Shown: piece after piece, positions 1-62,457 of the stretch
How positions within the stretch are numbered: position 1 is the stretch's first letter
How the letters are laid out: the number at the start of each line of letters is the position of its first letter
Source: Hamiltosporidium tvaerminnensis FI-OER-3-3
Taxonomy: Eukaryota > Fungi > Microsporidia
DNA length: 64,000 nt
Direction of reading: 5' to 3'
Assembly: GCA_022605425.2 (NCBI GenBank)
Contig: CM061246.1
Span: forward strand, 62,001-126,000
The notes under the pieces: model-generated
The model's database searches: none
What the model was told of the DNA's origin: nothing
The model's input: the letters and a program-made list of their open reading frames with translations, nothing else
Made by a program: the position numbers and the translations under genes

Positions 1-433
1 GGAGCGCGGATCATTAACACTCTTTATGTAAGGGCTACAACAGTAAGAGATAAGTCAATCCTAAAGGGGTGATACTTTTATTATAAACTAGCAGTGAGCA
101 TAAAAGATGATGGGGACTGACGAGTAGATAAAGGATGTTGTTTTCTTGCCTATTTAGGATTATGTATGATGATCGTTAGGGAGTTTTAGATTGATTGAAT
201 ATAGCCTGAGCCTAAAAGAAGTTAATTCCTGCAGGATAAAGTATGACAATAGGACCCCCTTGTTTGATATATAACATAGTCATCGGGTGGCCTTAAGGCT
301 AGGAGAGTAGTTCAGTTAGTTTAAGACGTGTTAATAGAGACCCTAAAACTCTATAGTAAAGGTTAGGGTTAATCATTTCTAGAACTTTCTAGAAACATAA
401 AAATATTTAAATAAAATTTCTTTTTCCTAGCCT
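1..433 (+). mobile_element. 3' end (UTR plus terminal block) of an APE-type LINE unit
   Basis: Ends in TTCTAGAACTTTCTAGAA..AAAATATTTAAATAAAATTT..TTCCTAGCCT, homologous to the blocks at ~1298-1354 and ~6632-6686. Confidence 0.6.
377..394. promoter_or_regulatory. Perfect 4-unit heat-shock-element-like motif
   Basis: TTC-TA-GAA-CT-TTC-TA-GAA fits alternating nGAAn units; 3-unit version at 6632-6644. Confidence 0.45.
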
Positions 434-439
434 AATACG

Positions 440-1354
440 GTAATAATAACCTGCAATATTATCAATTAAGGTTAAGAATGTATACTAAATTTATACGCCC
501 TCATATAGATTATTATACCAGCTGCTCGGTTGTAATAAAAAGTTTAATGAAGGCACTGATAGGATACAAAAAGGCATAATAAAATATCTATATAAAATTT
601 ATTTCAAAACGCCAACGAAGATCTTATACGCATTATTTCGCTTGGAAAATACAAAGCAAATAGCGGATAGACTCAGGAGCAATGTTGCTTATATGATCAT
701 ACACACAAGAAAAACACTTTAAGATGGATATTCAAAACGAATAAATCCAAAATATAAAAAATTTAAAGAAAAATTACAAGTATATCAAGAATATGGTTCA
801 GGGAAATGAATTTAAAGCCAAATATAATAGATGGCAAAAAGAAAATTTGCGTCTTAATTCCCATATCTTTAACTCTTTCGAGAATCTAAGGCAGTACAAA
901 TCCAAAAGGATTCCAACAACAATATTTAAAACTTTTTTAGATATTATTATTCCAGAACATAAAAGAGAAAATATAATTGAAATTTTAGTAAAATTTATTC
1001 AGCATAATATAGATCACCCTAACTTAGCGGGGTTTTTATTGGCCTTATTAATCCACAAGATACGAATTAGCAGGTACGTTAAGGCAGGATTCCCACAAGG
1101 GACGTTACTGCCATATTTAAAAATTTTTTACCAGATAATATTTTAAAGCTGATTAGGTTAAGAAGATGCCAATGAAACAAGACAATCTGGAACCTCAAGG
1201 AATTCCATATGAGGCTTCGTGAAAGTATAAGGGCAGATGAAACTGTAGTAACGGGTGTTATTAATGATACCAGGAGGAGGGGTTAATTGTGTGTAAATTC
1301 TGAAATTTTTCAGAACTTAAAAATATTTAAATAAAATTTTCTTTTCCTAACCCT
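440..1354 (+). mobile_element. 5'-truncated APE-type LINE unit (ORF2 C-terminus, 3' UTR, terminal block)
   Basis: KFIRPHIDY and FLDIIIPEHKRENIIEILVKFIQHNI..PNLAG align with 5300-6090 of the full-length copy; GAACCTCAAGG..ATGAGGCTTCGTG is shared with 6020-6055. Confidence 0.8.
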
Positions 1355-6688: not shown

Positions 6689-7670
6689 AAATCAAAGAAG
6701 AAAATCTAAGACTGAACTATAAGTCTTTGAATGGAACAAAATTCCTAAATAATATAACTTTAAACAACAATCAACAACAAATATCAATAAATTACCTAGA
6801 ATCTTGGATTCGATAAATAAATACAAAGATCTTGTTGAAATCTTGATAAAATTCATGCAAGCAAATATGGGCCAATCTATGCGCGAAGGTTGGTTACTGG
6901 CCTGATAACCAAACAAATAACGAAACGAATCGCGATAGGGCGGGGAGCCATTTTATACAAAACCGCCGTATTTAAATAATTTTAAACAAATAACACTGGA
7001 AACAGACAAATCTAGATATTATAGAAATACTGATTTTTAAAGGGGGTAAATGATATGACAATGGAGCTCTCTAAACCTATTAAAGATAGAGAATAAAGGG
7101 TGTTAATTTACCGAGTACCTTACTCTTAAGGGTGTTAATGATAAGAGACTGCGGCCTCTACAACACTACTTTACATACATTAAGAGTGTGTTAACCCAAT
7201 GTGATATAAGCCAACCTGGAGCGTGTTAAGTAAAAGGAAATTCTAATGATTAAGACCATTTAAATGGGTAGGAATTATGTCGCTTGTAAAGGGGTCTTAG
7301 ATATATGTGTGTTGGGTTGTTATATTGCACTCAAAAAACCTGTTTCTTTAATGTGGGTATATTACTTAGAAGAAATCCAGGGGTGCGTGTAAATAAGACC
7401 CCCTTGGAGTATTGGGATAAATGGGTGTTATTTCTATGGGATTGTACTGTGTCCTAATACCCCCTTGTTTTTTTTATTTCTAATGGGGTGTTAGACAAGG
7501 GCCATTGGGGGCACGATTAATACCTTTTAATTTTAGTGGTTTTTATAGGTTTAGTTGTGGTGTCTGAAGGTGTATTTTTCTTTGTATGGTGTGTCGCTGA
7601 AATTTCTAAATTTTCTTTGGAAATTTTAGACACGTAATATTATTAAATAAATTTCTTATTCCTTCATTTA
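6689..7670 (+). mobile_element. Heavily 5'-truncated, divergent APE-LINE unit
   Basis: VEILIKFMQAN-like coding relic (~6835) matches the ORF2 C-terminus; GGGTGTTA motifs at 7098-7493; degenerate terminal block at ~7598-7667. Confidence 0.6.
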
Positions 7671-19984: not shown

Positions 19985-20720
19985 AGATGTGAAAAAATGC
20001 TTGGTCATGACTATTCTAGACGACATAATGAAGTGGTACGATGTATACATTTTCTCTTGCTGAATAAATATGTTTAGTCTTCGAACGAATTGAAGCCACT
20101 CGTTCAGAAATTCTTGATAAAGAATATGCGAGATAAGAGTGGACACCGAATAAAAACTGATGTCGATTCGGTGTAACAGACCGATATATTTATTTTAGAC
20201 AGGACAGAATGGTAACCTATTGAAGTAGGAATCACATCCCAAGACTCTCTTCAATAGTTGAACGTGAAGCTTGAAGTATGACCTATTGAAATGAGTTGGT
20301 CTTATTTATAAATGCGTGGAGATAATTCCTTATGTGATGACCTGGACGTTTGTGACAAATACCATGACGTATGTGGACTGCAAAACCTGATGTAGAGGCT
20401 ATATATAATTTGTACTCGAAGACGTCAACAATTTCTTTGATCGACGAAGAGGACTTGAGTTGGTCCAATGCCGAGGAGAGCTAGAGAGCATCATTAAGTG
20501 TTATTTTAGGAGCTGAGATGCTAAACAACCAATACCCCCTTTAAAGTAAGTGGACAACGGGAAGATGATGTTAAATGAAATAACAAAAATATTACCCTTA
20601 TTTTAGGGTATAACCACGCGGAACCAACAACTATACAAATGAGGTTGGGAGGAGAAATGAGTGGTTGAATGGTGGAGATTATTTAGAAAATTTGTTAACC
20701 CAAAATTTTATTAAATAAAG
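19985..20720 (+). mobile_element. 5'-truncated R4/Dong-like LINE (RLE domain plus 3' UTR)
   Basis: Matches the reverse complement of ~34360-35185 (CEKMLGHDY.RRHNEVV onward); imperfect 14-bp TSD at 19971-19984 / 20721-20734 (12/14); ends TTAAATAAAG. Confidence 0.9.
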
Positions 20721-21525
20721 TATGTCTGAATTTATAATAAACTTTTATTTCAAAAGAAATTTGAGAAGAAGCATATCAATTTACCATATGAAGATAAGAA
20801 TATAATATAAACTTTATAAAGTCTAATACCATCGACTTTAAAATAATAGGATTATATAGGAACTCATAAATAAATTATGACTATATGTAACTTTTATAGG
20901 AAATATATTGATACTCCAAGGAAAAAAATTTATTCGTTTTTAGAGAAATACTAATTTTAGATTCTTAGCAGCTTTTTTCAAGAACCTTTAAGTTTAAAGA
21001 ACCCTAGAAAAATGGTTTTTTTGAATCGAGTTAGATATATTATTTTCTCCTTAATCCTTTTAAAATATCAATAAATATAAAATCTTTATTATCAATATTG
21101 TCTTATAGATGAAATATATCTATAGTATACGACGCAATATTAAGTAAAAATATTTACTTTTTTTTCGGTTTAAACTCAAAAGAACTTTAATATATTTTTT
21201 TAAAATTTTTTTGTAGGATTTAAAGTAATGATTTATAAATTGCTAATATTTTTCTTTATTACTAAATCTTTATGAACTTTAATGAAAATTTAATAAAAAT
21301 TTTTTAGTTATAATTTACAGAAAAATACTGATTGTGATTATTACATGTTTAGGGAAATATTATATCTTAAAAATTTAATTTGAAATTTTTAAATGAATAG
21401 GGTTTTTATTAGAAGAGACTTAAATTAATATTTTTTGATTCAAATTTCAAAATTAAAATAGGAAATGAAATTTGTTTTGTATTTAAAACATTCCTGTTAG
21501 AATAAAAATTGAATTTTCAATTTTT

Positions 21526-33477: not shown

Positions 33478-33590
33478 GGTGGAATGTGGGTAAAAAATTT
33501 AAAACCATCTGCTTGCTTGGTAATGAGTGTGTGAAATTTTTATTATTTTTTTTTATATTTTTGTTGGATATAAATCACACCGAATCTATG
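33478..33590 (+). mobile_element. Relic of the 5' end of the ~730-nt element
   Basis: TGCTTGGTAATGAGTGTGTGAAA..ATTTTTGTTGGATATAAATCACAC versus TGCTTGGCAATGAGTGTGTGAAA..ATTTTTGGTGGGAATAAAACCACAC. Confidence 0.65.
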
Positions 33591-34258: not shown

Positions 34259-34359
34259 CTAAATTGTAGTTCATTTTTATTTTAAAGTTAAAGAGGTAGA
34301 AGAAAACATATAAAAATGATAAAAAATATTTTAACCCTGAATTATATTAAATAAATATT

Positions 34360-37300
34360 TTATTTAATAAAATTCTGGGTTAACAAATTTTTCTTTTTAA
34401 ATAATTCTTTCCACCATTTCAACCACTTCTATCTTTTCCTCCAACTCCAACTCTTCATTTGTATTAGTTGTTGGTTCCTTTGCTGTGGTTATGCCATCCA
34501 AAATAAGGGGTAAAATATTTTTTGTATTTTCCGTTTTAACATCATCTTCCTCGTTGTCTACTTGCTTTAAAGGGGGTATTGGTTGTTTATGCATCTCGGC
34601 TCCTAAGATAACACTTAATGATGCTCTCTCCCAGCTCTCCTCGGCATTTGGACCAGACTTAAGTCCTCTTCGTCGATCAAAAGAAATTGTTTCGACTGTC
34701 TTCTTGAGTACTATGGATTGTATATATGCCTCTACATTCATGGGTATTTGCAGTCTCTTAACATACGTCTTATGGTATTTTGTCACAATACCGTCCCAGG
34801 TCATCACATAAGGAATTATCTCGACATTGCATTTATAAATAAGACCTAACTCATTTGCTAATAGGTCATACTTCCTAAGCTTCTCTGTTTCAACTATTTG
34901 AAGAGAGTCTTGGGATGTTATTCCTACTTCAATGAGGGTTATCCTATTCTGTCTCTTGTCTAAAATAAATATATCTGGTCTGTTACACCGGATTTTGACA
35001 TCAGTTTTTATTCTGGTGTCCACTCTTATCTCTGCATATTCGTTATCAAGAATTTCTTGAACTGAGTGGCTTCTAATTCGTTTCGAAGACTTAAACTTAT
35101 ATTTATTCAGCAAGAGTAAATGTATACATCGTACCACTTCATTATGTCGTCTAGTATAGTCATGACCAAGCATTTTTTCACATCTCGTTGCTAAGTGATC
35201 AACAGTTTTCCTAGACTGGTTGCAGTGTTGACACATACCTTCTGCACCCCAGAAAACATTTCTATCCTGGATATAACAGAACACTGCTTCATCACGTGGT
35301 CTTACACTTCCTTTCTTTAACCATCTTGAGGAGTCATTTACACTTACCAGCTCGTTATTTCTAGCGCTATATAACTTTGAATGTAGTTTTCGGTTTTTGA
35401 TTTCGTTATATAGGTTAGCTAGTTGAGCTTCTTCAATTTCTTTTTGTGACTTCCTCTTCCAACCCGTATTTTATTTTTAAAAGTTTTTAATCAGTGAAAG
35501 GTGGGTTTTATTATTATTCTCAACCTTTAGGATTGCTGCTCTTCTGGTCGATGTATCTTTATGTTTTTCCAGACAATCCAAGAGTTGCAAAGCATATGTT
35601 CGCTTTTGAACTCGACACTATGTAAACCTCTTCCAAGTTCTTTACGTGGAAGGTATAGACGTTCTTTGCATCCTGGGCGTAGATGTATTTTGTTCTTTAC
35701 TAACACTGCACGCACCGCATCATCTAACTTAAGAAGTCAGCCGGTTCAAGTCGGAGTACACCTATATGATAGTTTAGTAAAGAAATTGCATGTTGATTAA
35801 TGGCTTGAAATAAATTTCTTGCATTTAATCTCGTGCGACAAAGTCTTTCTACTCGTGCTATAAGTTTGGTCTGTACTTCCTCAAACGACTTACTTGTTGG
35901 AATTCCTCTGCTATCTTCTATAATTCCAGGTATTTATAAACACCTATTCCTTCGAAGAGTAGAGTATCTTCCACATGGATCATTAGTGGCTGACTTCTTT
36001 TGTTAATTTCCAATCCTATATTATTCATAAACTTTTTAACCTCCTCCGTTTTCTTCCATGTTTGTCCATCTTCGGCGGAGCTTAGATCATCAATAAACGG
36101 ATGATTAGTCGCGTGGATTCTGCATTGTCTTTATTCACTTTTTGTATTTCTTTAGCTTTTGGCTCAATGGATCCATACACAACACAACAATAATGGTGAC
36201 AAACTATCTCCTTGCGAATCCTCTATCAATCTTCTTACTCATGATTTTTCGGCCCTACTGATATATCAATTTTCCATTTTGATATAATTACCTTAATAAA
36301 TTTCGGATCCAATCAGGTAATTAGGTTTTCATACATTGGTTAAATAGCATGATCTATTGAATATAGCTTTTTTGACATCAATCCATGTTGCCTTAGATTG
36401 TTTCCTACTCTTTATTAATGGCATATTCATAGGGCTTGTTCTTTCGTCCTTCCCCTCTAACCGCACCCAACTGATTATCTAGTAATCCTCGTCTTTCCAC
36501 CTCAACCTGAACCACTTTAGTGACACATTTTGTAGTCTTTTACAGGTTTGACATACAGTTATTGGTCTGTAATCGAGCCAGTCTTTGGTGTACCTTTAGG
36601 TATCGATAGTGTCCACATAATACCAATCGGCTTGAGGCGTTCCTTCTAAACATATGGCTTTCACAATATTGTAAGATATTTATGAGGCTCGTAGTTTCTT
36701 GATGTAGTTTAAATACCATCATTCCGGCTTTCCGTTGCAGCCAATTGATGATATCTATAAACTCTTCAGTAAAGGAAACGTGGTCTGTGCGTATCTGACA
36801 CGAAGGTATCAAATACTCATCATATGTAACTACTTTTCATTTTTATTCCACATTGTAGACCAAATTCTGAAATTTCTCACGATAAACACATGCTCGATTC
36901 AACGCGCTCGATAACCCTCGTAGAATCGACCTCGAATAACTCACATACGATTCTTTCAATTTTCTCCTTCTTTCTACATCGTATTTTTTCGTACACATTC
37001 AGCCTCATTCTTCTTAACCAGCCACGAGATCATTTACTTTGCTTAGTCTAAATTAACTCTCTAATTTTTCTGAACTTTCTTTCCGTGGCTTTTCCTGCTT
37101 GCGCCTTTCGAGATCTTTAAGTACTAACTTGAATTTTATTCTTGTTTTCCTTCCGCGATCTGGTTTCTCCTTACGTGTTTCCTCGTCTAACATACCTGGG
37201 CCGCCTGGATGATTCGAGCTCATCACTAACATTCTTAGGCACATGGATTCGCATATTCACCTGTGATCCGATTTATGAGTTCCAAACTTTACTATCAACC

Positions 37301-37867
37301 AATTCACTTGAGTTTTCTGTTCGACCACTACATCTCCATTTCCCTCCAGTTCCTTGATTTTGCCAAGACTTTTCTCTCGGTTCTTGGTGTGTGTCGTTAA
37401 GGAACTGGGCTCGCGAGACAGTGGCGATTCTACGTCGCTCTCTTCTTTCTTGCCTTATTCTCTTTCTGCCTCTTATGTATTAATTTTTAACACATCGATA
37501 TCACGTTCGACCAAATTTCCCATTATAGTACTAGAATTGCGACCAGCCATTTCTAGGCATTCTCTCAACTTTTTCACGTGCTAGCAGATCTGGCCATTCC
37601 TGCTCTACGGCTTGACGGTCGTATTGAATGCAATACCATGTCGTTTCTTCTATGTCATTGTTTTCCTTTGTTTGTCCCCGCCAAATCGACGGGTCGAATC
37701 GCAGCTGATTGTAGCCTGAGCGTATTGCTCTGGGGTGTGTTATTTAGTGGTCGGTTTGGTGCGTCTCATATGTTACTCATCTCTATCCACGTTTTATCTC
37801 TTTAACTATTTCCGTTGTTTACGATTTATTTCATCATTTTTATTTTCTGTCACTTTTTCTTACCCAT
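34360..37867 (-). mobile_element. Full-length R4/Dong-like RLE non-LTR retrotransposon, frameshifted in this assembly
   Basis: CQHC..DHLATRC knuckle, RHN, PD..IEVG, KLRKY; homologous to 55081-58886; TSD ATATTAAATAAATATT at 34344-34359 / 37866-37881. Confidence 0.92.
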
Positions 37868-38379
37868 ATTAAATAAATATTAAATAGAAATTAATATGAA
37901 GTTAAACATAATATATGATAAAAGAAAGTTTGTTGAAATATTATTTTTTACTCAATTTCTTCGAATAAAATTTTATAGAATATAATCCGTTAAATTATAA
38001 TAAAAGATTTAACCAAGTTTTTCGAATAAAAATAAATCGAATATAATCCGTATACTTGTAATAAAAGATTTAAACTTTCTTTTATCATGAATGTTAAATA
38101 GAAATAATAATTTTAAAAATCTCATTTGGATATCTTTTAGATTTAGGAGGTATAATATATTTAAGAATATTTTCAAAAGTAAATTTGGTTTTTTGGTAAA
38201 GAAAAAATGATTTTAATATGATTAGCTTGTGTATGTAGGAATCTAATTAAATATATTTTAATTCAAAAGAAGAATTTAAAAATAATTTAATAAAGCAATA
38301 ATGTAAATTTGGGAAATAAAAAGAAAAATTTTAAATTGTATATGAAAGTGAAAAGCTTTTTGAATATAAATTTTAACCG

Positions 38380-38472
38380 TTTTTTATTTAAAAGTATCAC
38401 ATCTTTTTTAAAATAGTGGCAAGTGTTATATTTGTTTTCATGACATTAACGCAGTTCTAGGTTTAACATAAA
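38380..38472 (-). mobile_element. 5'-truncated (~90 nt) copy of the ~730-nt element
   Basis: Near-identical to 38497-38586; flanked by ATAAATTTTAA(C/T)CGTTTT direct repeats at 38366 and 38468. Confidence 0.85.
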
Positions 38473-38492
38473 TTTTAATCGTTTTTTAATAA

Positions 38493-39247
38493 TTTTTTTA
38501 TTTAAAAATATCACATCTTTTTAAAATAGTGGCAAGTGTTATATTTGTTTTCATGACATTAACGCAGTTCTAGGTTTAACATAAATAACTGCTACCCCAA
38601 AACTCCATCAGTAACCCCTGCGATACCTACGTCCCAAAGCCTTTCATCTATTAGGTGTGTAGAACCTAATTAATAGGCGAGGCAGTTGCCCGGAGTTCGT
38701 TAATGTCCGTTGCATGGAGTGTGATCGAAGGCCGAAGCCCCCCCTGGGCTCCCCCAAGACTATGCAGCATTCCCACTTACTCTACACTTTCTGAACCCAA
38801 TAAACTTCTAGCTAAGATATATCTCAGAGATTTACATGGGGTCCACCTAGACAGTGCAATCTCATACCAACAGGTATAACCTGCTACTTAGCTCCCCTGG
38901 CTTTAAATGGTTTTAATTTTTTAATCTCCCAGGCGCTTATTCTTCTAACACAAGTATGCAAGGCTATGTTTTCGATGCTTTTACATGAAAATTACCTACA
39001 TGTTCAGCTGCGGTCTGCAATCTGGTTACATAAAAAACTACAAATAAATTTGTAGAAAAAGTTTCTCCATTTCTTAGACCTCTTCTCCTCATAACAACTC
39101 CCATGGAACAACCAAAGATGTAGTGTGGTTGTATTCCCACTAAAAATCCAAACAATGATCTTTACACCAGTTTCACACACTCATTGCCAAGCAGAAAGTT
39201 TTTTATGTGGTTATCCTCCCTCCACCTTTTTTTTTTAATTAAATAAT
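38493..39247 (-). mobile_element. ~730-nt non-autonomous retroposon (SINE-like), copy 1
   Basis: 15-bp TSD ATCGTTTTTTAATAA at 38478-38492 / 39248-39262; short A tail; highly similar to 50638-51367. Confidence 0.9.
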
Positions 39248-39295
39248 ATCGTTTTTTAATAAATATATTATATTCATATATCATGATGATAACCC

Positions 39296-40513
39296 ATGGT
39301 AGAGGTAGAATCTATAAATGAAATTATTACTGTCGAAGCATTTATTGTAAGTAGAAAAGAACTAAATGATGTAATGTTAAAATACAATAAAGTTTTACTG
39401 AATAAACCAAAAATTCCAAACATAATTGATTTGAACAAAGAATATATGACATTCTCTGTAATCGATTTACAAAAAATAGTTTCTAAGGACGAAGTAATCT
39501 GTTTGCTGAATTCGGATTTTATAGAAAATGACTTCTCAGAATGGTTTGGAGCAAAAACCCCTAATATTTTGTTAGGATCATGTAAAATCGATGTACTGGA
39601 ATCTTTAGGATATAAAAGACCAGAATTATATTTTTGGGAATTTACAGAGATTTTTGATTTAAAACTTTGTCTTAATTTTAATTATTTCAGTTATAAAGAA
39701 ATATTAAGGAAGATTTTACCATCAAATTGTAAAATACCAACTTCTTTTGAAATTATCGGTGACATTTTACATTTAAATTTAACAGAAGATTTACTGATTC
39801 ATAAAAAAATTATTGGTGAAGTTTTATATAAAAAAATAAAAAATATAAAATCTGTTGTGACTAAAATTGGAAATATTTCAAATGAATTTAGATTTTTTGA
39901 AATGGAAGTTTTGGAAGGAGACCACGATTTAAACACGAAGCAAATAGAAAATGGATTAATATATTTCTTAGATTATAGTAAGATGTATTGGAATTCTAAA
40001 TTACAATCAGAAAGAAAAATTATATTAAATTATTTTAAACCAAATGAAACTATCTGCGATCTTTTTTGTGGGGTCGGTCCTTTTGTAATTCCAGCTTTGA
40101 AAAAAGGTTGTATCGTCTACGCAAATGATTTAAATAAAGATGCTATAACCTATTTAAAGAAAAATGTTGTAGAAAATAAAGTAAATTCTTCAAAAATATT
40201 TATTTTCAATGAGAACGCATTTTCACTGATAAAAACACTCAAGACACAAAATACAGCCGTTAATCATTTTATCTTAAATTTACCTGAAAAATCTCTTTTA
40301 TTTTTTAAAGAAATTTTATCTTTAAATTTTAATTCAATGATTCATTGTTATTTCTTTTGTAAGGAATTTATACAACCTTGGGAATTTGTTTATAATGAAA
40401 TTTCAATTGAAATACCAAAATCGAATTTCGAAATGATAAGAAGCGTCTCTCCTTCAAAAAATATGTGGAAAATTACTATTAATTTACAAGAAATTGAAAA
40501 ATCTAATTTTTAA
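39296..40513 (+). CDS. TRM5: tRNA (guanine37-N1)-methyltransferase
   Basis: PTSFEIIGDILHLNL, FRFFEMEVLEG, YWNSKLQSER, DLFCGVGPF, ANDLN, HFILNLP. Confidence 0.93.
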   Translation: MVEVESINEIITVEAFIVSRKELNDVMLKYNKVLLNKPKIPNIIDLNKEYMTFSVIDLQKIVSKDEVICLLNSDFIENDFSEWFGAKTPNILLGSCKIDVLESLGYKRPELYFWEFTEIFDLKLCLNFNYFSYKEILRKILPSNCKIPTSFEIIGDILHLNLTEDLLIHKKIIGEVLYKKIKNIKSVVTKIGNISNEFRFFEMEVLEGDHDLNTKQIENGLIYFLDYSKMYWNSKLQSERKIILNYFKPNETICDLFCGVGPFVIPALKKGCIVYANDLNKDAITYLKKNVVENKVNSSKIFIFNENAFSLIKTLKTQNTAVNHFILNLPEKSLLFFKEILSLNFNSMIHCYFFCKEFIQPWEFVYNEISIEIPKSNFEMIRSVSPSKNMWKITINLQEIEKSNF

Positions 40514-42902: not shown

Positions 42903-43999
42903 TATTTTTATTAAAAGAGAGACTTGTAATTTTAGTTTATATTAGATAGAATTCGAAGTGTTTGATAAAATTTTATTATATTTGTATTGTAAAATTGTGT
43001 TTTACTTACTAAAAGATCTCTTAGACTTTAATTTTTGTAAAATATATTGAAAGTAGAATAGCTTTAAATTATTGTATTTTTTTGATAGAATATGAAGAAA
43101 TAGTAAAATACATAAAATATCAGTTGATGGAAGGAAAGTAAAAAATATATTTTTTTTAAATTAAAATATGTTAGATTGATCGTTATTACACAGTATTTGT
43201 ACTAATAATGTTATTTTATGGCATTTTTATTGTTATATTAAGATAATAAGCCGGTTTAATTATCTGTAGATCTATGGGATTAAATTTTGAGTCGAAGCAA
43301 CATGTTCTCTTGTGTATATATTTTTCCTTCTTCAAAGAGGTTATTTTGAGCTCTTGAATTAAACCCTTGTTTGTTTTATCGTTGGTTTCTCCGATGTATT
43401 GATTAGTTAATTACAACTCAAGAGTATGATATGATCGTCTTTACATTTTGCCATTATCCTTCTCTTTACTTGTCTTATCCGAGGTCTTGTTTGTTCATTA
43501 ATTATTGGTCTTTGTTTATCACACATCGATACATTCTTCCGGCTTACATGAGCCTTATTCTTAATTTGAATGCTTTCTACAGTCAAAATATATTATTTGA
43601 CTGTTTTTCGCGTCAATCTATTGTATGTTCCCCTCAAGTTCATGATTATATAAAGCCTTTACGTTGTATTCTATGGTATTCAAGCCAATACGATCCCAAG
43701 TTATAATATAAGTAAGGTACTCAAACCAAGTTAACAACTAAGACCTGGCTATTAAGTAAAAAGCTCTACTTGTTGATTTTTTTCAGTTTGAATATTTGGC
43801 AAAAGCAATTGGAAGTAATTTTTACTTCAATTAAAACCATAAAATTTTGCTCTTATTAATGTGTTTTATGTATTGCATGCTTCAAGAAGACAATAGAAAT
43901 ATGATATTAGATTTCAAATGAATCAGATTTTTGCTAAATCAAGGATAGATATGTGTTTAGAGGAGTAGAAAATATACATGTAAGCACTTAAATAAGTCT

Positions 44000-44845
44000 A
44001 ATGAAAAGGTAGAGCATTTAGCGACCCTCTTTGTGAAAATTCTCAGACAGGAGTATACCAGATAGGATAACGAAGTTTTTAGACATACATTTGTTCGTTC
44101 TAAAAATATAAAAATTTAGGTCGTTAAAACGAATTAAAGCCACTCAATTCGAGAAATTTTTAAAAATGTGTATGCAGAGATAAGAGTGGACACCAGAATA
44201 AAAACCGATGACAAGATTTTGAATAATAGAACCGATATATACATTTTAGATAAGAGAAAATAATGTGATAACATTCAATAAGGTAAGAATTATTTACCAA
44301 GATTAACTTAAAATAGTTGAAACTAAAAAATTAAAAAGTATAATTATTTTCGAATGAGTTAGTCATAATTATGAGTATAGTGCTTGGATTATCCTAAATG
44401 TGAATACTTTTGGATGGTATTGTGACAAAATAGCACAAGTTGTATCCCAAAAGACCGCAAATATCCATGAGCTAGAGGCATATATCTAGTTAATAGTTTC
44501 CAACACTGAGTCGAGACAATACCCTCTGATCGGCTAAGAATATCTGAACAGAAAATAAATGATGAAGAGATTATGGAAAGAGAGCAAATGGGCGTTACTA
44601 AAGAGGCTGGGATGTATGAGCAACTAACATTTCCTTTAAAACAGCAAGTAACCAGGAAAATAGCGTTAAACAAGTAAATATAAAAAAATAACACGCCAAT
44701 ATTTTAATAAGAAAACTCTAATCGAAGATTTGACAAAATTAAATACAAGGGGGTTGGTGTTGGAGGAGGAATGTTTGGTGGCTAAAGAGGTAGAAAGAAA
44801 TTTTTAAGAGGGTGAAAACATTTGAACAAATAAGTTTATAAAATA
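44000..44845 (+). mobile_element. Degenerate 3' fragment of an R4-like LINE
   Basis: TATGCAGAGATAAGAGTGGACACCAGAATAAAAACCGATG (YAEIRVDTRIKTD) and TGGATGGTATTGTGACAAAA. Confidence 0.8.
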
Positions 44846-44869
44846 AGGCTACAGGAATATAGAAATCTC

Positions 44870-45500: not shown

Positions 45501-47438
45501 TAAACTTAAAAAAACATTTGAGCTTTTTGTTTGAATTCAGTTTCTGCGTTTATATGATTTACTTGATTATTCAATGAAATTTGGGTCTATAGATAGCCTT
45601 AGCCCCATTTTGCCCCAGATTATTTTTTTTACAATTGAGTGTCTCTCTTTTTCATTCGTCTATACTAAGGTTACTAGGAACCTTTTTTAAATCATCTAGT
45701 CATCGCTTTTGAAGAACTTGTAAATTTCCGATCTTGGGATCGAAGATATACATTCTTTTAATATACAGATGTTTGGTGTTTGTTCAAGATAGGCCAGCCA
45801 TCGGAGTCTGGTTCTTCCAACTTCGTTTTGTCCTCTTAGATTTCAACATAAAATTTAGAGCTCATATTATTCTAAATTTGCTACACCTCTCGCAGATTTC
45901 TTGTTAAAAGTGTGTTTATCGCAGGGTTTTTAGTGGTCTTATGCCTTTATAGCCTCATTATGTGTTTCCAGTATTCATGTTCCAATGCATACATCAATAT
46001 AAGTTAACATATGGTACTAGTATTATCTTTTTACTTCACCTGCTTATAAGTCGAAGGTCATAGTTATCTTGTAAGCCAAAATATTCTTTATTTCTTGCTT
46101 CATTTTTCTTTTTATTTCGGACTGTTGTCATTATTTTTCATCAGAATAACTCTTAGATATGCAAAAGAAAATATGCTTTGGAAACGATATTCCTCTACTT
46201 TAAAAAGGGGGAATATTTTCCTTTTTCTTTGAAGTGAACTTGGATTATGCTTTTATTTAAATAATTGGCTTATTCTTTTAAATTTTGACATATAATCTTG
46301 TGTTTATATTTTGCACAAAATTTTCAAGATTTTTATTCGTCTTTCCCTTTCTATAACATCATGTGCGCTTTTATAATTAATAATAATACATTCAAACACT
46401 CGATAAGTATCAACATTCGGTTTCAAATCAAACATTAAAAACCTTGGAAAGTTCAAATTGCATCGAGGCTCTCGACTCGCATAATTATTTTATTTTCGCC
46501 TAAAAATTTCTTTTAGTACCATATTTTCATTCTTTCGAGTTGTCGGAAACACGGCATAAAGTAAAAACACCACCTGAAATTAAACAAATATGGATTCAGT
46601 GATTTCATGTCGCGGTAAATTTTTCGTTTTCATTTCAACGCTTGATAAATTCATTTCAGATAGCAATTTATTTTAAAAATACATTATACTGATATATTGT
46701 GAAATTATCTTACTATTTTTTAGAAACATTCTATTAAATTGTATTTTAAAAATGTTAAATCTTCAATGTGAAAATTTTTTTTCTTGAATCCTGTTTAAAG
46801 ATTCTTCTTTTGTTTTGCTTTATATGCTTGTGTTATTGATATAAGCGACGTAAGATTTTTTGTGCCATACTATAGTTTGTATATAACATTGAAAGATTTA
46901 AAATATGAATTTTAAAATCGATAGTAGATCTATATCTTAGTATACTAAACCCTTTATATCTAATAATCATAACCTAAAATAGTACATTTATATTATATTA
47001 AATATTAGTACAGAAATAAAATTATAACAGGCTTTTATGATTATTATACTTTTCCTTGGTACATCAATTTCGTTTTAATCTTTTCTTTTCTTTAATCTAA
47101 GAAATTCTATGATGCTAATTTCTTGATAAATGACAGAATTAAGACAATAAATTTTTGCCAACTAAAAATTTTAAATTATAATTTTAAAATCTAACTTTGA
47201 TCAGTATTTCAGGGTAATTTCGAATATATTTTTAGATTTTAAAACCTTACTTTCTTATTCTATTCCTCTTTTATCTCTCGGTGTCGAAGATGAACAAATT
47301 AAAGTTTTACAGAATTTTTTTTTAATCAGAAGTAACTTGAGATTATAGAGATTTTTCTTTGGGGTAAGTCTGTTTAATGGCTACTAAAATGCCAAAAATG
47401 ATATTTAAATCATTTCACACCTTCATTTCCAATCAGAT

Positions 47439-47578
47439 AGTTTTTATTGTAGTTATTATCCCTCCACCAAGTTTTAAATCAATTAATTACAATTCATCCG
47501 TAATACATTTAGTTTTTATTGTAGTTATTATCCCTCCACCACGTTTTAAATCAATTAATTACAATTTATCCGTAATAC
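47439..47578. repeat. 71-bp tandem duplication
   Basis: AGTTTTTATTGTAGTTATTATCCCTCCACC..TCCGTAATAC occurs twice. Confidence 0.85.
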
Positions 47579-50045: not shown

Positions 50046-50150
50046 AAGGAAGGATAATCATATTAAAAACTATCTACTAGGTGATGAATGTGCACAATTC
50101 GTGTGAAAATCATTGCTGTCGTTTTGGTAGGATATAAACCACACTAGATC
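50046..50150 (+). mobile_element. Relic of the 5' end of the ~730-nt element
   Basis: GGAAGGATAATCATATTAAAAACTATCT..TCATTG..TTTTGGTAGGATATAAACCACACT matches the element head. Confidence 0.65.
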
Positions 50151-50637
50151 TATTTATTGATTCCCCTTTAATCCTGAATTACTCGAACTTAAACGAAACA
50201 AATGGAAAATTTTCATTTGTGCATCCTCGAATTAGAAAGATAAAAAGGAAATAGAATAAGTGAGTATGTATAACTTTCAAGCTATGGAATACCTATAGAT
50301 CTATGTTTTTATAATCTAAATTAAACGGGTTAAGACTATCAGCTAATATTTTTATTATATTTTGAGTTTTGATGTTACGATGAACCATTATGTTTAACAA
50401 ATAGACTTTTGAACTACATATTTGTTTAGAAGTAAATGTAGAACGAGGGTCTGTAATACTTAAAGTTGGAAACTTTGAGACTCCTTAAGTAATTCAAATA
50501 TTGTTGTGATAGATTTTTAAGAAGCTATAGATCAAATATGGTTGATGTTTATTATCAATATCGAAATTAAGAACGACTTAAGGCGACTAAGATGCCTAAA
50601 ATTCTTATGTTTACAACATTAATCCTATTCGATTGAA

Positions 50638-51367
50638 CTTTATTTAAAAGTATCACATCTTTTTTAAAAATTGGCAAGTGTTATATTTGTTTTTATGACA
50701 TTAACGCAGTTCTAGGTTTAACATAAATGACTGGTACCCCAACACTCCATCGGTAACCCCTGCGATACCTACGTCCCAAAGCCTTTCATCTACCAGAAGT
50801 GTAGAACCTAATTAATAGGCGAGGCAGTTGCCCGGTGTTCGTTAATGTCCGTCGCATGGAGTGTGATCGAAGGCCGAAGCCCCCCCTGGGCTCTTCCAAG
50901 ACTATGCAGCATTCCCACTTACTCTACACTTTCCGAACCCAATAAACTTCTAGCTAAGATATATTTCAGAGATTTACATGGGGTCCACCTAGACAGTGCA
51001 ATGTCATACCAACAGGTATAACCTGCTACTTAGCTTTCTTGGCTTTAAATGGTTTTTTGTTTTGTATCTCCCAGGCGCTAAGTCTTCTAACCCGAGTGAG
51101 CAAGACTAGGTTTCCATGCTTTTACATGGCAATTACCTACATGTTCAGCTGGGGTCTGCAATCTGGTTACATAAAAAACTACAAATAAATTTGTAGAAAA
51201 AGTTTCTCCATTTCTTAGACCTCTCCTCTTCATAACAATTCCCATAGAACAACCGAAGATGAAGTGTGGTTTTATTCCCACCAAAAATCCAAACAATGAC
51301 CTCACACCAGTTTCACACACTCATTGCCAAGCAGAAAGTTTTTTATGTGGTTATCCTCCCTCCACAA
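50638..51367 (-). mobile_element. ~730-nt non-autonomous retroposon (SINE-like), copy 2
   Basis: Perfect 13-bp TSD CTATTCGATTGAA at 50625-50637 / 51368-51380. Confidence 0.93.
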
Positions 51368-52419
51368 CTATTCGATTGAATACACATGAAACTATAAAAT
51401 ATTTGTCTATAGTCTGAATTTTAAAAGTTTTTCGTAAAATAAAATTGATAGATCGTAGAGAATAAATTCCAATAAAAAAGCAGTGAAAATGCGAGGAGAA
51501 ATTTTTTTTGCTATTTTTTTGTTGTTAAAGACTCGCTAATTGAAAGCAAAAAAATACAGTGTCAAAATCCAAAATAACTTCGAAAATTTTCTTTTATCGA
51601 AACGATTTGTTTTGTTTTGATAACCTCAATTAATCCGTACACATTCTTCTATATTAAATTCAATGATATGGAAGTAAAATATTTATTTTAGATCATATGC
51701 TAGATGATCTGCAGAATAAAGTTTACTAATTACTTGTGGGGAAATATAACATAGCACGTTACGCTGATCTATGATTTATAAATACTTTTAAGTCAAATAA
51801 AAAAATGAAAAGAAATATAAAACATAGGACATTCTAAAGCGCAGAAAATTCGTCTATTATATCTTAATTATACAGTTTTTGAGTTAGTTTCAATTTTGGT
51901 TAATTCATGAATAAACAAACATCTTATTTTACTAATTCTTATGTTTTTTCGATCTAGAGTATTCATTAGAGGTTAGTTTAAGATACAGGTTACAATTTTT
52001 TCTGTATAAATAATTAAATTTTTTTTAAAAAAAGGTGTATAAAGTTCTGTATCTGATCAGATAGGAGGCCATGAAAGTTTCAAATATGTTAGCTTACGAA
52101 GCGATATATTGATTTGTAGTTTTCTTATTCTAAGTAAATGATGAATTTAAATTGAATAAAGCTGAAATCCCAGACTTTTATAATATCAATAAAATCTAGC
52201 TTAAATCAGATATAGTTGCTCATATCTCGGTTAATATATATTTTAAATTATTTGAAATGGAAAATCTTAAAACTTGAGGGTTTAATGGTTGTACAGAGAT
52301 GAAATTTCAAATTATAACAAACAAATAAATTAAGTGATAGAAAATATTTAGTTTTGGACCTTATTTGAAATAGATTAAGAAAAAAAATTGACCTAAAAGT
52401 TTAGATATGTTTTTTCTAT

Positions 52420-54944: not shown

Positions 54945-55080
54945 TTTTATATGTTTTGTTTCATATTTTAGACGGTTAAAACGTTCCGTTACATATCATG
55001 TTTCAGATTAGGATTAATGTTTTGGCCTCAAATTTTTTATTTTTTCTGAAATATACAATATATGAATTATAATTAAACAT

Positions 55081-58000
55081 TATTTAATAAAATTCTGGGT
55101 TAAAATATTTTTTAACGTTTTTATATGCTTTCTTCTACCTCTTTAACCACTATTTTCTCTTCTTCCAAATCCGACTCTTCATTTATGTTATTGGTCGGTT
55201 CCTCTAAAGTGGCTCCTCCTTGTGAAATAAGGGGTGTGTTATTTTTTGGTTTTAAAATTTTAACACCATCTTCCTCTCTTTTCGCTTCTTTTAAAGGGGG
55301 TATTGGTTCCTCATGCATCTCTGATCTCATAATAACACCCATTGACGCTCTCTCCCAGCTCTCTTCGGCATTTAGTCCTGACTCAAGTCCTCTTCGTCGA
55401 TCAAAGGAAATTGTTTCGACTGTTTTCTTAAGTACTATAGACTGAATGTATGCCTCTACATTCATGGGTATTTCTAGTCTTTTAAGATGAGATTTATGGT
55501 ATTTTGTCACAATACCGTCCCAGGTCATCACATAAGGGATTATCTCAACACTACACCTATAAATAAGACCCAACTCATTGGCTAGCAGGTCATACTTCCT
55601 AAGTTTTTCAGTTTAGACTATTTGAAGTGAATCTTGGGAAGTGATTCCTACTTCAATGAGTGTTATCTTATTCTTCTTCTTATCTAAAATAAATATGTCC
55701 GGTCTGTTATTCCGAATTTTAACATCAGTTTTAATTCTGGTGTCCACTCTTATCTCTGCGTACTCATTATCAAGAATTTCTTGAACTGAGTGACTCCTTA
55801 TTCGTTTTGAAGACTTAAACTTATATCTATTTAGGAGAAGTAGGTGTAGGCATCTAACCACTTCATTATGTCGTCTAGTGTAATCATGGCCTAGCATTTT
55901 TTCACATCGAGTTGCTAGATGATCTACAGTCTTACCAGACTTCCAACAATGTTGACACACACCATCTGCTCCCCAGAATACATTTCTATCCTGGATATAG
56001 CAGAACACAGCTTCATTTCGTGGCCTAATATTTCCTCTCTTTAGCCATCTTGAAGAGTCACTAACACTCACAAGCTCATTTTTCCTTGCATTATATAATT
56101 TTAAATGGAGTTTTTGTTTTTCTATTTCGTTATATAGTTTTGCAAGTTGAGCTTCTTCTAAACTTTTCTTAGTGACTTCTTCTACCAACCTGTACTTTAC
56201 TTTTAAGAAGCCTTTTATTAGTGCAAGATGGGTTTTATTATCATTCTCAACCTTAAGTTTCTGCTCTTCTGGTCGATGTTTCTTTAGATTTTTCCAGACA
56301 ATCCAAGAGTTGCAGAAGCATATGGTCGCTTCACAACTCAACACTATGTAGGCCTCTTCCAAGTTCTTTCTAGGAAGGTATAAACGCTCTTTACATCCTG
56401 GGCGGAGATGTATCTTATTCTTTACCAACACCGCACGCACTGCATCATCTAACTTAGAGAAGTCGCCAGGTTCAAGTCGAAGTACACCTATATGATAGTT
56501 TATTAGAGATATCGCATGTTGATTATTAGCTTGAAATAAATTTCTTGCATTTAATCTCGTGCGGCACAGTCTCTCTACCCTCGCTATCAGTTTGGTTTGT
56601 ACTTCCTCAAACGACTTACGTGTTGGAATTCCTCTGCTATCTTTTATTATTCCGAGGTATTTGTAAACACCTATTCCTTCAAGAAGAGTAGCAGTATTCT
56701 CACAACACGAATCATTTGTGGCTGACTTCTCTCTGTTTATTTCTAATCCTATATTTTTCATAAACATTTTTACCTCCTCCGTCATCTTTTCAAGCGTTGT
56801 TCCATCTTTGGCAAGGAGCTTAAGATCATCAATGAACAAGAGATGATTGGTAGAGTGGGATGCATCCTCCGTTTGTATTCTCACTTTTGTGTATTTTTCA
56901 TTAAGCTTTCGGCTCAATGGTCTATACACAATACAAATAACAAAGGGCACAAACTATCCCCTTGTAGAATCCCTCTATCAATCTTCTTGCTCAGTATTTT
57001 TTCAGGCCCTACTGATATATCAATTTTCCATTTTGATATAATTACCTTAATAAATTTCAGGATCCAATCAGGTAAATTAAGGTTTTCAATGCATTGAGTT
57101 AAATAAGCATGATCTATTGAATCATAAGCTTTTTTAACATCAATCCATGTTGCCTTAAGATTGTTTCCATACTCTTTATTTAAGTCAATATTCAGTAGAG
57201 CCTGCTCTTTCGCTCCCTGCACACCTCTTACCGCCCCTAATTGGTTCTCTGCAAGCAACCCTCGCCTTTCCACTTCAATTTGAACGACTTTCGTAGCACA
57301 CTTTGTCGTTAGCTTGTAGAGGTTTGACATACAAGTGATTGGCCTGTAGTCAGAGCCTCTTTGTGGAATTCCTTTCGGTATCAAATACGTAAGCCCGCAG
57401 TAAAACCAATCAGCTTGAGTTGTTCCTTCTAAACATATAACTTTCACAATATCATAAATATATTTGTGAAGAGTTGTAAGTTTCTTAATGAAAAAATTGT
57501 AAATACCATCAATTCCAGCAGCTTTCCAATTGGGGAGCCAATTAAGGATATTTACAAATTCATCAAGTGAAGGAAACGTGGTCGGATGATTATCTGATAC
57601 AAATGGAATCAAATAATCATCATACGTGACTGTGTCATCATTTTTGTTCCACATTGTAGACCAAAAACTCACAATTTCATCACGACTCCCTAAATGCTCG
57701 GATTCTACACGCTCAGATAACCCACGATAAAATCGACCTCGGAAAAGCTCAAACATACGATTCTCTTTTCGGAATTGCTTCCTACTTTCATGCATCGTAA
57801 TTTTTTTCTCGTAAACATTCAAAGACTCATTCTTCTTAACTAAAGCCTCAGAAAGATCAGTTACGCTGCTCAAGTTTAAATTAAACTCTCGCATGATTTT
57901 CTTAAGGCTCTTCGTTTCCGAAGTGGAGAGCTTTTCCTGCTTACGAGCTTTCTCGAGGAGATCTTTGGAAAGTACTAACTTAGAAATTTTATTTTCTATG

Positions 58001-58886
58001 TTTTCCTTCCAAGCGGATCTAGGCTTCTCTTTACGTGTTGCCTCGTCATAGCATACCTGCGCAGCTTGCATGATATACGCGGCTTCCGTAATTGACTCAG
58101 GTACATGAGCTCCTGCATATTCACCGACTACTCGATTAATGAGATCCAGAACTTTACTATCAACCAATTCATTTGGATGTTTTCTAGTTCGGACCACCAC
58201 TTTTCCAATTTCGTTCTCAGAGATTTCTTTGATTTTACTCAAGAATTTATCTCTCAGGTTTATGTACTCCGTGGTGTCGGTCAAGGTGCATGTATCAGCG
58301 AGACAAGTGGCGATTCTACGTCGCTCTCCATTCTCTTCTGATTTTACTTCCTTTCCCCTCTCACTTTGTGCCAATTTTTTTAACACTTCGAGAGTTTCAG
58401 TGCAGCCGAATTTCTCATTATAGTACCTGTGAAGCTCTGTCCAGCCATTTCTTGGCATTCTTTCAAACCTTGTCTGTACTGCAAAAAAAACAATTCGAGG
58501 CCATTCCTTCGGGTCGGCTGTTACGGAATCGAATATCGTCTGCAATGCCATTAGCCTGTTACCTTCCGGAATAGCTAGAGTACAGGGGCTTGTCATGTCG
58601 TACGATGGCTCGCACGCAGAGACTTCAACCGAACAGGGAACTGGTGCATTAGGCGAAGGTAAGGTGTCAAGCCCACTATTTTGCATTTTACTGCATGTTT
58701 GGCTTGGTGGTGGAGGTGTTATTGTTGTGTAGGAGGAGGAAGGTAGGGAAATCGCCGGTGGGTGTAGCTTACATTTTTGTACCTCACTATCACTCTTTTT
58801 CACCTCATCAGCGTCGTTTGCAGCCTTTATTTTGGTATTTTTCAGTATTTCGCTGCTAACATTTTTCTTTCTACCCATTGAAAAAA
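55081..58886 (-). mobile_element. Near-intact R4/Dong-like RLE non-LTR retrotransposon (single ORF 58878 to 55121 with a few frameshifts)
   Basis: RT motifs YRPITC, QLG, WIDVKKAYDS, GILQGDSL, LFIDDL, YKYLG; CCHC knuckle; RHN; PD-(D/E)xK RLE; 12-bp TSD ATAATTAAACAT at 55069-55080 / 58887-58898. Confidence 0.95.
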
Positions 58887-61733: not shown

Positions 61734-62457
61734 CGCTGTGGAGGGGGTATAACCACATAAAAAAACTATCTGCTTGGCAATGAGTATATGAGATTGATAT
61801 ATAAAATCATTGTTTGGATTTTTGGTGGGAATAAAACCACGCTACATCTTCGGCTGCTCCAAGGAAGTTTGTATGAGGAGGAGAAGATCTATGAAATGGC
61901 TAAACTAATTCTACAAATTTATTTGTTGTTTTTTATATAACTAGATTGCAGACGACAGTTGAACATGTAGGTAATTGCCGTGTAAAAGCATGGAAACCTA
62001 GCCTTGCGCACTCGATTTAGAAGACTTAACGCTTGAGAGATATAAAAATAAAACCCTTTGAAGCAGGAAAAGCTAAGTAGCAGGTTATACCTGTTGGTAT
62101 GACATTGCACTGTCTAGGTGAAACCCATGTAAGTCTCCGAAATATATCTTATATGAAGCTTATCGGTTTCGAAAATGTAGAATAAATGGTACTGAGCATA
62201 GTCTTGGTAAACTCAAGTGAGTTTTTAACTAGGATTACACTTCATGTAACTGACATTAACGAACTCTGGACACCTGAACCGCTCATTGAGTTGGTTCCAT
62301 ACGTACAGATGAAAGGCTTCGAGATTTAGGTATCTTAGGGGTACTAATAGAGTGCTGGGGCTGCTATTAGATGTAAACCCGAAACTGCGTAATGTCATGA
62401 AAACAAAAATAACTTATGTCACTGTTTTAAAAAGATGTGATATTTTTATATAAAGTC
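61734..62457 (+). mobile_element. ~730-nt retroposon, older diverged copy 3
   Basis: Collinear with the reverse complement of copies 1 and 2; 15-bp TSD ATTATTTTTT(A/G)AAAT at 61719-61733 / 62458-62472. Confidence 0.88.

What the first reader, a model, noticed from the sequence alone, without database searches (positions are those of the whole stretch)
50690..50890. Predicted pseudoknotted 3' domain of the ~730-nt element
Seen: GACATTAACG (50697-50706) is complementary to CGTTAATGTC (50840-50849), 10 bp. ACACTCCAT (50742-50750) is complementary to ATGGAGTGT (50856-50864), 9 bp. The two helices cross, forming a pseudoknot. GTTCTAGGTT (50709-50718) can pair with TAGAACCTA (50802-50810) in two alternative registers. 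A GGC-UUCG-GCC tetraloop hairpin lies on the minus (sense) strand at 50872-50881. Helix 1 is retained in copy 1 and mostly in copy 3. Inference: an RT-recruiting module, a ribozyme or a stability element. I could not fit it to hammerhead or HDV consensus.
Basis: partly seen in the sequence, partly recalled or inferred. Interest (0 to 1): 0.78.

Follow-up and report, generated by a model that had tools for sequence, protein, structure and literature searches.

The report
Folded tail of a microsporidian SINE
This is the GC-rich end of a 727-base non-coding repeat of the water-flea parasite Hamiltosporidium, estimated at about a thousand copies and likely spread by reverse transcription; two crossing base-paired stretches are there and may form an RNA knot that would help recruit the copying enzyme, but copy-to-copy variation does not confirm the knot.

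Summary
The cited complementarities are all in the sequence. A crossing 10-bp plus 9-bp pair arises in 14 of 5000 shuffles of the element. The window is Hamiltosporidium (microsporidian). The host element (50639-51365) has three copies here, sharp ends, 13-15 bp target-site duplications in two copies (15 bp with one mismatch in the third), no terminal inverted repeats, no tRNA and no Pol III boxes. Run depth and window density point to roughly a thousand copies. It is most likely a non-autonomous retroposon (SINE-like) moved by the Dong/R4-type LINEs in the same window, which have similar duplications. The knot is sterically and energetically plausible and has HDV-like topology without the catalytic core. 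It is not supported by variation: 16 of 38 variant rows break model pairs, no fewer than chance; helix 2 is broken in both other copies. Only helix 1 looks conserved, weakly. The element's ends and depth do not coincide with the domain, which argues against self-cleavage. Best reading: a predicted RT-recruiting 3' module, like the R2 3' UTR (0.4). Main rival: no functional knot (0.3). I found no description of this family in the papers searched.

The parts
50639..51365 (-). Copy 2 of the ~727-nt non-autonomous retroposon (SINE-like); sense strand inferred
   Evidence: sharp ends at 50636-50639 and 51365 in contigs of 4 of 4 runs laid
38497..39225 (-). Copy 1, 93% identical, close to the majority version; its 3' ~90 nt are tandemly duplicated at 38383-38473
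61738..62456 (+). Copy 3, 80% identical, decayed
50626..50638 (.). Target-site duplication of copy 2 (13 bp); its twin is at 51368-51380
   Evidence: 6 of 3964 random AT-rich flank pairs share 13 bases or more
50869..50900 (-). Two predicted hairpins in a row; the second is the C(UUCG)G hairpin (6 bp, two G-U pairs)
   Evidence: pair probability about 0.8 on minus, 0.04 on plus, majority version; lost in copy 3
50856..50864 (-).
   Evidence: variants at 50858, 50859, 50860
50840..50849 (-).
   Evidence: 1 of 10 positions variable at 2% or more
50755..50839 (-). Predicted arm 1, stacked on helix A (where HDV has P3/L3)
   Evidence: prediction only, variants break it at the background rate
50742..50750 (-). 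Helix B, 3' strand in sense
   Evidence: 50743 C>A in 14.6% of depth breaks the second pair
50712..50741 (-). Predicted arm 2 (where HDV has P4); overlaps the segment with two alternative registers
   Evidence: prediction only
50697..50706 (-). Helix A, 3' strand in sense, 58 nt from the element's 3' end
   Evidence: no variant row shown, but near the edge of the stretch laid
51257..51365 (-). 5' head (~110 nt) shared with three older repeats in the window (50047-50151, 47372-47467, 33514-33587); candidate promoter or signature
   Evidence: z 14-16; the other 7 segments z 2.1 or less
55063..58880 (-). RT-CCHC-RLE LINE (likely Dong/R4), candidate partner; 12-bp TSD, starts at the ATG, ends in AAATAA; relatives at 34338-37870 (-), 43916-44850 (+), 19985-20723 (+)

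Best explanation
[quoted passage not shown] Shown: multi-copy element, sharp ends, duplications, the complementarities. Inferred: (1) minus-strand transcription by Pol II or read-through, since there are no A/B boxes and there are internal T runs; (2) helix A closes a three-way junction and helix B crosses it; (3) the LINE protein binds this module, nicks AT-rich DNA and primes at the AAATAA end about 60 nt downstream; (4) mostly full-length copies result.
For: TSDs of 13 bp (copy 2) and 15 bp (copy 1), and 10 bp exact (15 with one mismatch) in copy 3. In the null, 6, 1 and 110 of 3964 flank pairs reach these exact lengths. Two RLE LINE copies have 12- and 16-bp TSDs in AT-rich DNA and the same AAATAA terminus. 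Summed contig depth is 1.9-3.6 million over the element against about 970 in the flank in run X1 (the tool warns this is no copy number). Three copies per 64 kb in a 21.6-Mb genome (size from PMC10542269) give about 1000. Crossing helices occur in 14 of 5000 shuffles. Helix A has pair probability about 0.95 in the majority version. Freeing both B strands costs 3.2 kcal/mol while the B duplex is -12.4. Eight of 64 model pairs are G-U on minus and would be mismatches on plus. The three most variable sites (33-43%) are unpaired in the model. Precedent: a pseudoknot-hinge-hairpin in the avian R2 3' UTR binds R2 protein (PMC13486585, passages). One H. magnivora ORF call joins element sequence to this LINE's RT in the same sense (P0139).
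Against: Variants do not avoid the model's pairs: 16 of 38 rows break (null as low or lower 17263 of 20000 by count, 7481 of 20000 by weight). Helix B varies at 5 of 18 positions, with a 14.6% and a 6.4% pair-breaking variant. Helix A's conservation (1 of 20 against 29 of 111, p 0.043) falls to p 0.24 on G/C positions, and half of it lies near the edge of the stretch laid. Folding z-scores are near zero. A 3' tail shared with the LINE is not established: a ~50-nt match to the decayed copy at 44663-44712 beats almost all shuffles (0 and 2 of 3000), but 3 of 1056 unrelated window tiles score higher and a profile of four LINE ends gives E 0.45. No sign of the domain in the LINE. An APE-type LINE is also present and could be the partner.
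Confidence: 0.4

Rival explanations
1. The element is a real retroposon but the knot has no role. The crossing complementarity is chance or inherited from the source sequence; at most helix A and local hairpins form, and the RT recognises the terminal AT-rich tail.
For: No depletion of pair-breaking variants. Helix B is broken in 2 of 2 other copies. MFE z is about 0 to -0.9. Without pseudoknot modelling helix B has probability 0.03-0.05.
Against: The pattern is rare at this base composition. The variant test is weak because dead copies decay without selection. A canonical C(UUCG)G loop and G-U asymmetry point to one strand.
Confidence: 0.3
2. The domain is a stability module that protects the transcript from 3' decay or from Dicer, so that full-length RNA accumulates.
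For: It lies 58 nt from the 3' end. Depth is flat along the element, so copies are mostly full length. The species has Dicer and Argonaute (PMC7313128, supplement rows).
Against: No match to any Rfam family, which includes described stability elements. The variation evidence is as unsupportive as for the best explanation.
Confidence: 0.13
3. The domain is a self-cleaving ribozyme of an undescribed type, or a heavily expanded HDV-like one, that trims the element's RNA.
For: The order of strands matches HDV P1/P2, with a stem stacked on the second helix and a hairpin before its 3' strand (HDV layout recalled). Non-LTR elements and SINEs often carry ribozymes (PMC6765202 passages; PMC8501958 and PMC4035085 abstracts).
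Against: My HDV descriptor found 0 hits with P2 of 6 bp or more in 6 of 6 sequences (three copies, both strands), and no hammerhead or twister core (motifs recalled, no positive control run). Rfam has no hit at E up to 10. No G1, no short L3 and no C-N-A-A junction in the model. Known retroelement ribozymes sit at the 5' end next to the TSD; this domain is internal. X1 mean depth is 2.6 million over the domain against 3.0 million upstream, so no excess of short copies, and no top-listed loose end at the domain edge.
Confidence: 0.08
4. The domain binds ribosomes or mimics a host RNA, so that the RNA meets newly made LINE protein, as Alu does through SRP9/14 (recalled).
For: The LINEs here start at the ATG with no visible 5' UTR, so capture at the ribosome is conceivable. 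The domain is GC-rich (0.51-0.57 over 50760-50939) in a 26% GC genome.
Against: No similarity to SRP, tRNA, 5S, rRNA or IRES families. No direct evidence.
Confidence: 0.09

Closest known systems
EhSINE1/EhSINE2 of Entamoeba histolytica with their REL-endonuclease partner EhLINE
   Same: 0.5-0.7 kb non-coding, dispersed in AT-rich intergenic DNA, TSDs up to 16-22 bp, RLE-type partner LINE (PMC3716655 and PMC1635306, passages).
   Different: A 3' end shared with the partner LINE (a feature of EhSINE1 as I recall it) is not established here. No sequence comparison with EhSINE was possible. This element has a GC-rich candidate knot and a 5' head shared with older repeats.
R2 3' UTR pseudoknot-hinge-hairpin module
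   Same: A knotted structure near the 3' end of a template for an RLE-type RT (PMC13486585, passages).
   Different: The R2 module is compact and proven to bind R2 protein. This one spans ~170-200 nt, has no Rfam match, is absent from the LINE copies in the window and is untested.
HDV-like ribozymes of R2, RTE and L1Tc/NARTc (Pr77)
   Same: Same order of two crossing helices with two inserted stems. Pr77 is also a 5' signature shared among element families (PMC4035085, abstract), like the 110-nt head here.
   Different: Catalytic core missing; the domain is near the 3' end, not at the 5' end; the element's ends do not coincide with it.
MITEs reported as 56-59% of H. tvaerminnensis TE content (PMC7313128 supplement)
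   Same: Short, non-coding, high copy.
   Different: No terminal inverted repeats, long variable TSDs, asymmetric ends. Whether that study's MITE class absorbed this family cannot be told from the tables seen.

Membership tests
Non-autonomous non-LTR retroposon (SINE-like) | Short, non-coding, dispersed, high copy | tested here: met
   no long ORF; no credible protein parent
Non-autonomous non-LTR retroposon (SINE-like) | Variable target-site duplications | tested here: met
   13 and 15 bp exact in 2 of 3 copies; 10 exact (15 with one mismatch) in the third
Non-autonomous non-LTR retroposon (SINE-like) | 3' tail shared with a partner LINE | tested here: inconclusive
   Common AAATAA terminus; ~50-nt match to one decayed LINE copy not above the genomic background
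Non-autonomous non-LTR retroposon (SINE-like) | RNA intermediate exists | tested here: inconclusive
   No RNA holder listed; the two RNA-type runs laid gave no test
Classical Pol III SINE (tRNA, 5S or 7SL head) | tRNA/5S/7SL-derived head with A and B boxes, no internal T runs | tested here: not met
   ARAGORN 0; Rfam 0; no A/B box and 5 to 7 T4+ runs on the sense strand of each copy
HDV-like ribozyme | Crossing P1 and P2 | tested here: met
   Helices B and A have that order on the minus strand
HDV-like ribozyme | P3 with short L3, P1.1, catalytic C in J4/2, G1 | tested here: not met
   Descriptor 0 of 6 sequences (no positive control); Rfam none
HDV-like ribozyme | Self-cleavage | not testable with these tools
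   Needs an in vitro assay
Hammerhead-bearing retrozyme or Penelope-like pLTR | CUGANGA/GAAA core; Penelope partner | tested here: not met
   No core in 6 of 6 sequences; Penelope-like 0% in both H. tvaerminnensis rows of PMC7313128 supplement
Twister ribozyme | L4 consensus and T1/T2 pairings | tested here: not met
   No L4 motif in 6 of 6 sequences; Rfam none
MITE | Terminal inverted repeats, short fixed TSD | tested here: not met
   The ends are not complementary; TSD 13-15 bp
Solo LTR | TG...CA ends, 4-6 bp TSD | tested here: not met
   3' end is AAATAA; TSD 13-15 bp
R2-type RT-binding 3' module | Covarying pseudoknot | tested here: inconclusive
   One possible compensatory pair (50748 C>T 3.7% with 50858 G>A 3.9%), phase unknown; no depletion of breaks
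R2-type RT-binding 3' module | Specific binding by the LINE protein | not testable with these tools
   Needs binding and TPRT assays

The most novel reading that the evidence does not exclude
The most abundant-looking short repeat of this microsporidian carries an RNA domain built on the HDV double-helix scaffold with a different core: a new ribozyme class or a new RT-recruiting fold, in a SINE family of a phylum for which I found no SINE described.
Probability: 0.1. Interest if true: 0.85.

Novelty: new member of a known kind. Interest (0 to 1): 0.42.

Why it matters
About a quarter of the published H. tvaerminnensis genome is unclassified repeat (25.45% 'other', PMC10542269, passage). A family of about a thousand 727-nt copies would be roughly 3% of it and a direct contributor to genome expansion in a lineage known for reduction. 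If the knot is real, it would show how a non-Pol III SINE captures an RLE-type RT without sharing the LINE's tail. With so many copies in a near-complete assembly, the test is a single alignment. If the knot is not real, what remains is an ordinary but apparently undescribed SINE-like family.

Tried and rejected
No whole genome was held, so copies outside the window could not be aligned; variation was read from run tables without phase. No RNA holder listed. Runs X20 and X24 had nothing laid and give no test of expression or strand. Exact-pattern scans: metagenome contigs 0 and 0, prokaryote genomes 0, viral contigs 1 hit with no similarity beyond the pattern, taken as chance. blastn against plasmids and phages: no match. 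Rfam: none at gathering score in the window, four weak unrelated hits at E 2.5-9.2, none for copy 1's domain. Origin from a LINE coding region: a likeness to RT motif B' scored -3.5 bits, within the shuffled range; blastx against 135 proteins, best E 0.37: rejected. Protein parent of the head: none among longer proteins. Of 3 hits among cluster representatives, 2 are repeat-protein artefacts and 1 is an H. magnivora chimera. Plus-strand ORF at 50845-51018: no homologue. Telomerase RNA: the only template-like 7-mer (CTAACCC at about 51087) is not kept in copies 1 and 3; telomere TTAGGG from PMC10542269: rejected. Group I intron, RNase P/MRP, IRES: only short recalled resemblances, no Rfam support. 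In one search my fifth helix was mis-registered by one column and should be ignored; the 3 'both sides changed' pairs there come from copy 3 in poorly aligned parts and are not counted as covariation. Sigma-70 scan is irrelevant to a eukaryote and at background. Earlier findings of this scan: none in 3 look-ups.

Full report
Observation. Helix A (10 bp, 50697-50706 with 50840-50849) and helix B (9 bp, 50742-50750 with 50856-50864) cross. In dinucleotide shuffles a crossing 10+9 pair arises in 1 of 3000 for the 201-nt stretch and 14 of 5000 for the whole element. That is beyond chance for this element. It is less so for a 64-kb read, where 19 of 1276 tiles, all AT-rich, show the same pattern. 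Folding energy is unremarkable (z 0.10 and -0.90; majority version -0.86 and -0.93).

Organism. Six window proteins were looked up. All six are in the collection, and the named members of the four clusters that have any are Hamiltosporidium tvaerminnensis or H. magnivora. The published H. tvaerminnensis genome is 21.64 Mb, 39.56% interspersed repeats, 25.45% unclassified (PMC10542269, passages).

The element. Three copies lie in the window, at 93% and 80% identity to this one. In contigs of 4 of 4 runs laid, depth rises sharply at 50636-50639 and falls at 51365, with heterogeneous AT-rich flanks. In run X1 the summed depth is 1.9-3.6 million inside against about 970 outside. The tool warns that this is no copy number; window density gives about 1000, so I say order of a thousand. 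Target-site duplications are 13 bp (copy 2), 15 bp (copy 1) and 10 bp exact, 15 with one mismatch (copy 3); 6, 1 and 110 of 3964 random AT-rich flank pairs reach these exact lengths. There are no terminal inverted repeats, no tRNA, no Rfam match, no A/B boxes and several T runs. No protein parent was found. The minus strand is the likely sense strand: it ends in AAATAA with an A run in copy 1, it carries C(UUCG)G (pair probability 0.8 against 0.04 on plus), and 8 of 64 model pairs are G-U only on it. No RNA data confirm this.

Partner. The window holds four clear copies of a LINE family with RT (Pfam) and, read directly from the translation, a CCHC finger and a PD..D..E.K endonuclease motif. 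Its best relatives are H. tvaerminnensis RTs. I call it Dong/R4-type by these domains and because Dong-R4 is the main LINE class listed for the species (13-24% of TE content, RTE-BovB 7-9%, Penelope 0; PMC7313128 supplement rows); I built no tree. Two copies have 12- and 16-bp TSDs; a third showed only 9 bp, within chance. They end in AAATAA like the element. A longer shared tail is not established: a ~50-nt match to the decayed copy at 44663-44712 beats shuffles (0 and 2 of 3000 for copy 1; 10 and 4 for copy 2; 28 and 49 for copy 3), but 3 of 1056 unrelated tiles score higher and a four-copy profile gives E 0.45. It was the best of 66 comparisons. One H. magnivora ORF call joins about 28 codons of element sequence to this LINE's RT (P0139), which shows the family in that species. 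A decayed APE-type LINE at 1300-6700 is a second candidate.

Structure model. On the majority version, helix A forms with probability about 0.95 on either strand. With A fixed and both B strands kept free, the best fold is -61.3 against -64.5 kcal/mol, and the B duplex is -12.4, so adding B is plausible; no pseudoknot loop penalty was computed. The model is a three-way junction closed by A, with a long arm stacked on it, the 3' strand of B in the junction, and a second hairpin. This is the strand order of HDV P1/P2/P3/P4 (recalled), but there is no G1, no short L3 and no C-N-A-A junction. My descriptor found nothing in 6 of 6 sequences (no positive control).

Test by variation. Run X1 shows 46 changes at 2% or more in 50688-50900, of which 40 rows were listed. 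A against the rest gives p 0.043, but 0.24 on G/C positions only, and the 50697-50706 arm is near the edge of the stretch. I dropped 2 rows whose minor share is under 2% (50798, 50853). Of the other 38, 11 fall in loops, 11 keep a pair and 16 break one; random placement breaks as few or fewer in 17263 of 20000. A 14.6% variant breaks B's second pair and a 6.4% variant its middle. For the model: the three commonest variants are unpaired, and partners 50748 (C>T, 3.7%) and 50858 (G>A, 3.9%) have matching shares in X1 and in X15 (0.4%, 0.3%). But C>T and G>A are 31 of the 46 changes, and phase is unknown. Most low-share variants are probably decay in dead copies, so this test can neither confirm nor exclude the knot. 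Among the three window copies, A never varies apart from one gap, and B has 3 broken cells, one G-U and no compensation.

Mechanism. I rank RT recruitment first (0.4): position near the priming end, an RLE-type partner, and the R2 3' UTR precedent (PMC13486585, passages). No functional knot comes second (0.3), then stability (0.13), ribosome capture (0.09) and ribozyme (0.08). Against a ribozyme: such elements carry it at the 5' end next to the TSD (PMC6765202 passages; PMC8501958 and PMC4035085 abstracts). Here the domain is internal, and depth over it (mean 2.6 million) is not above that upstream (3.0 million).

Literature. A search for Hamiltosporidium + transposable elements + SINE found 0 papers. 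The word SINE does not occur in the main text of PMC7313128 (part 1 of 4 read, passages, 9 supplement files searched), PMC10542269, PMC4202319 or PMC12449221 (passages). Searches for microsporidia + SINE + short interspersed (15 of 38 listed), microsporidia + ribozyme + retrotransposon (8 of 8) and Dong-R4 / microsporidia / non-autonomous (12 of 70) showed, by title and abstract start, nothing on such a family. Repeat libraries of the genome papers, their supplements other than those of PMC7313128, bioRxiv supplements and subscription journals were not seen; the family may sit there unnamed. The closest described system is EhSINE/EhLINE of Entamoeba (PMC3716655, PMC1635306, passages).

Verdict. 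Observation confirmed. The element is an apparently undescribed, abundant SINE-like retroposon, a new member of a known kind. Its pseudoknot is plausible, unproven and easy to test with the genome in hand. Interest 0.42.

Noticed in passing
window 51257-51365, 50047-50151, 47372-47467, 33514-33587: A ~110-nt 5' head is shared by the element and three older repeats whose bodies differ. Against the copy at 50047, 9 of 15 differences fall on third codon positions of a 19-codon frame that ends in a stop in both (857 of 20000 permutations do as well). No protein parent found.
   Followed up: partly
window 6100-6620 (also 7080-7200): An array of a short G-rich motif (about AGGGGTGTTA) with variable 15-30 nt spacers at the 3' end of a decayed APE-type LINE. 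Seen as families D7 and D13 and missed by Tandem Repeats Finder. Unexplained.
   Followed up: no
window 1-7200: Tandem pieces of a decayed APE-type LINE with repeated 3' ends at about 430, 1350 and 6690, and telomere-like GGTTAGGGTTA at 361-371.
   Followed up: no
window 51169-51180 with 51337-51348: A 12-bp long-range helix, mostly A-U, in the element's 5' part; kept in copy 1.
   Followed up: partly
window 51000-51008: A second partner for the 3' strand of helix A (8-9 bp), which would compete with it.
   Followed up: no
window 50709-50718 and 50802-50810: The two segments with alternative registers are both windows on one 7-base unit repeated in tandem, which explains the two registers; 1 of 19 positions is variable.
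   Followed up: partly
window 50047-50638 and 51381-51445: Copy 2 may have inserted into an older relative of opposite orientation; only that relative's first ~110 nt align significantly.
   Followed up: partly
window 58878 and 37867: Both near-full-length RLE LINE copies begin at the ORF's ATG, with no 5' UTR after the TSD.
   Followed up: no
runs X1, X3, X5 (table 5c): A few head-to-tail joints of the element with 4-30 AT-rich bases between, at about single-copy depth.
   Followed up: no
window 39225-39296: Copy 1's 5' end lies 70 nt upstream of the TRM5 start codon, facing away from the gene.
   Followed up: no
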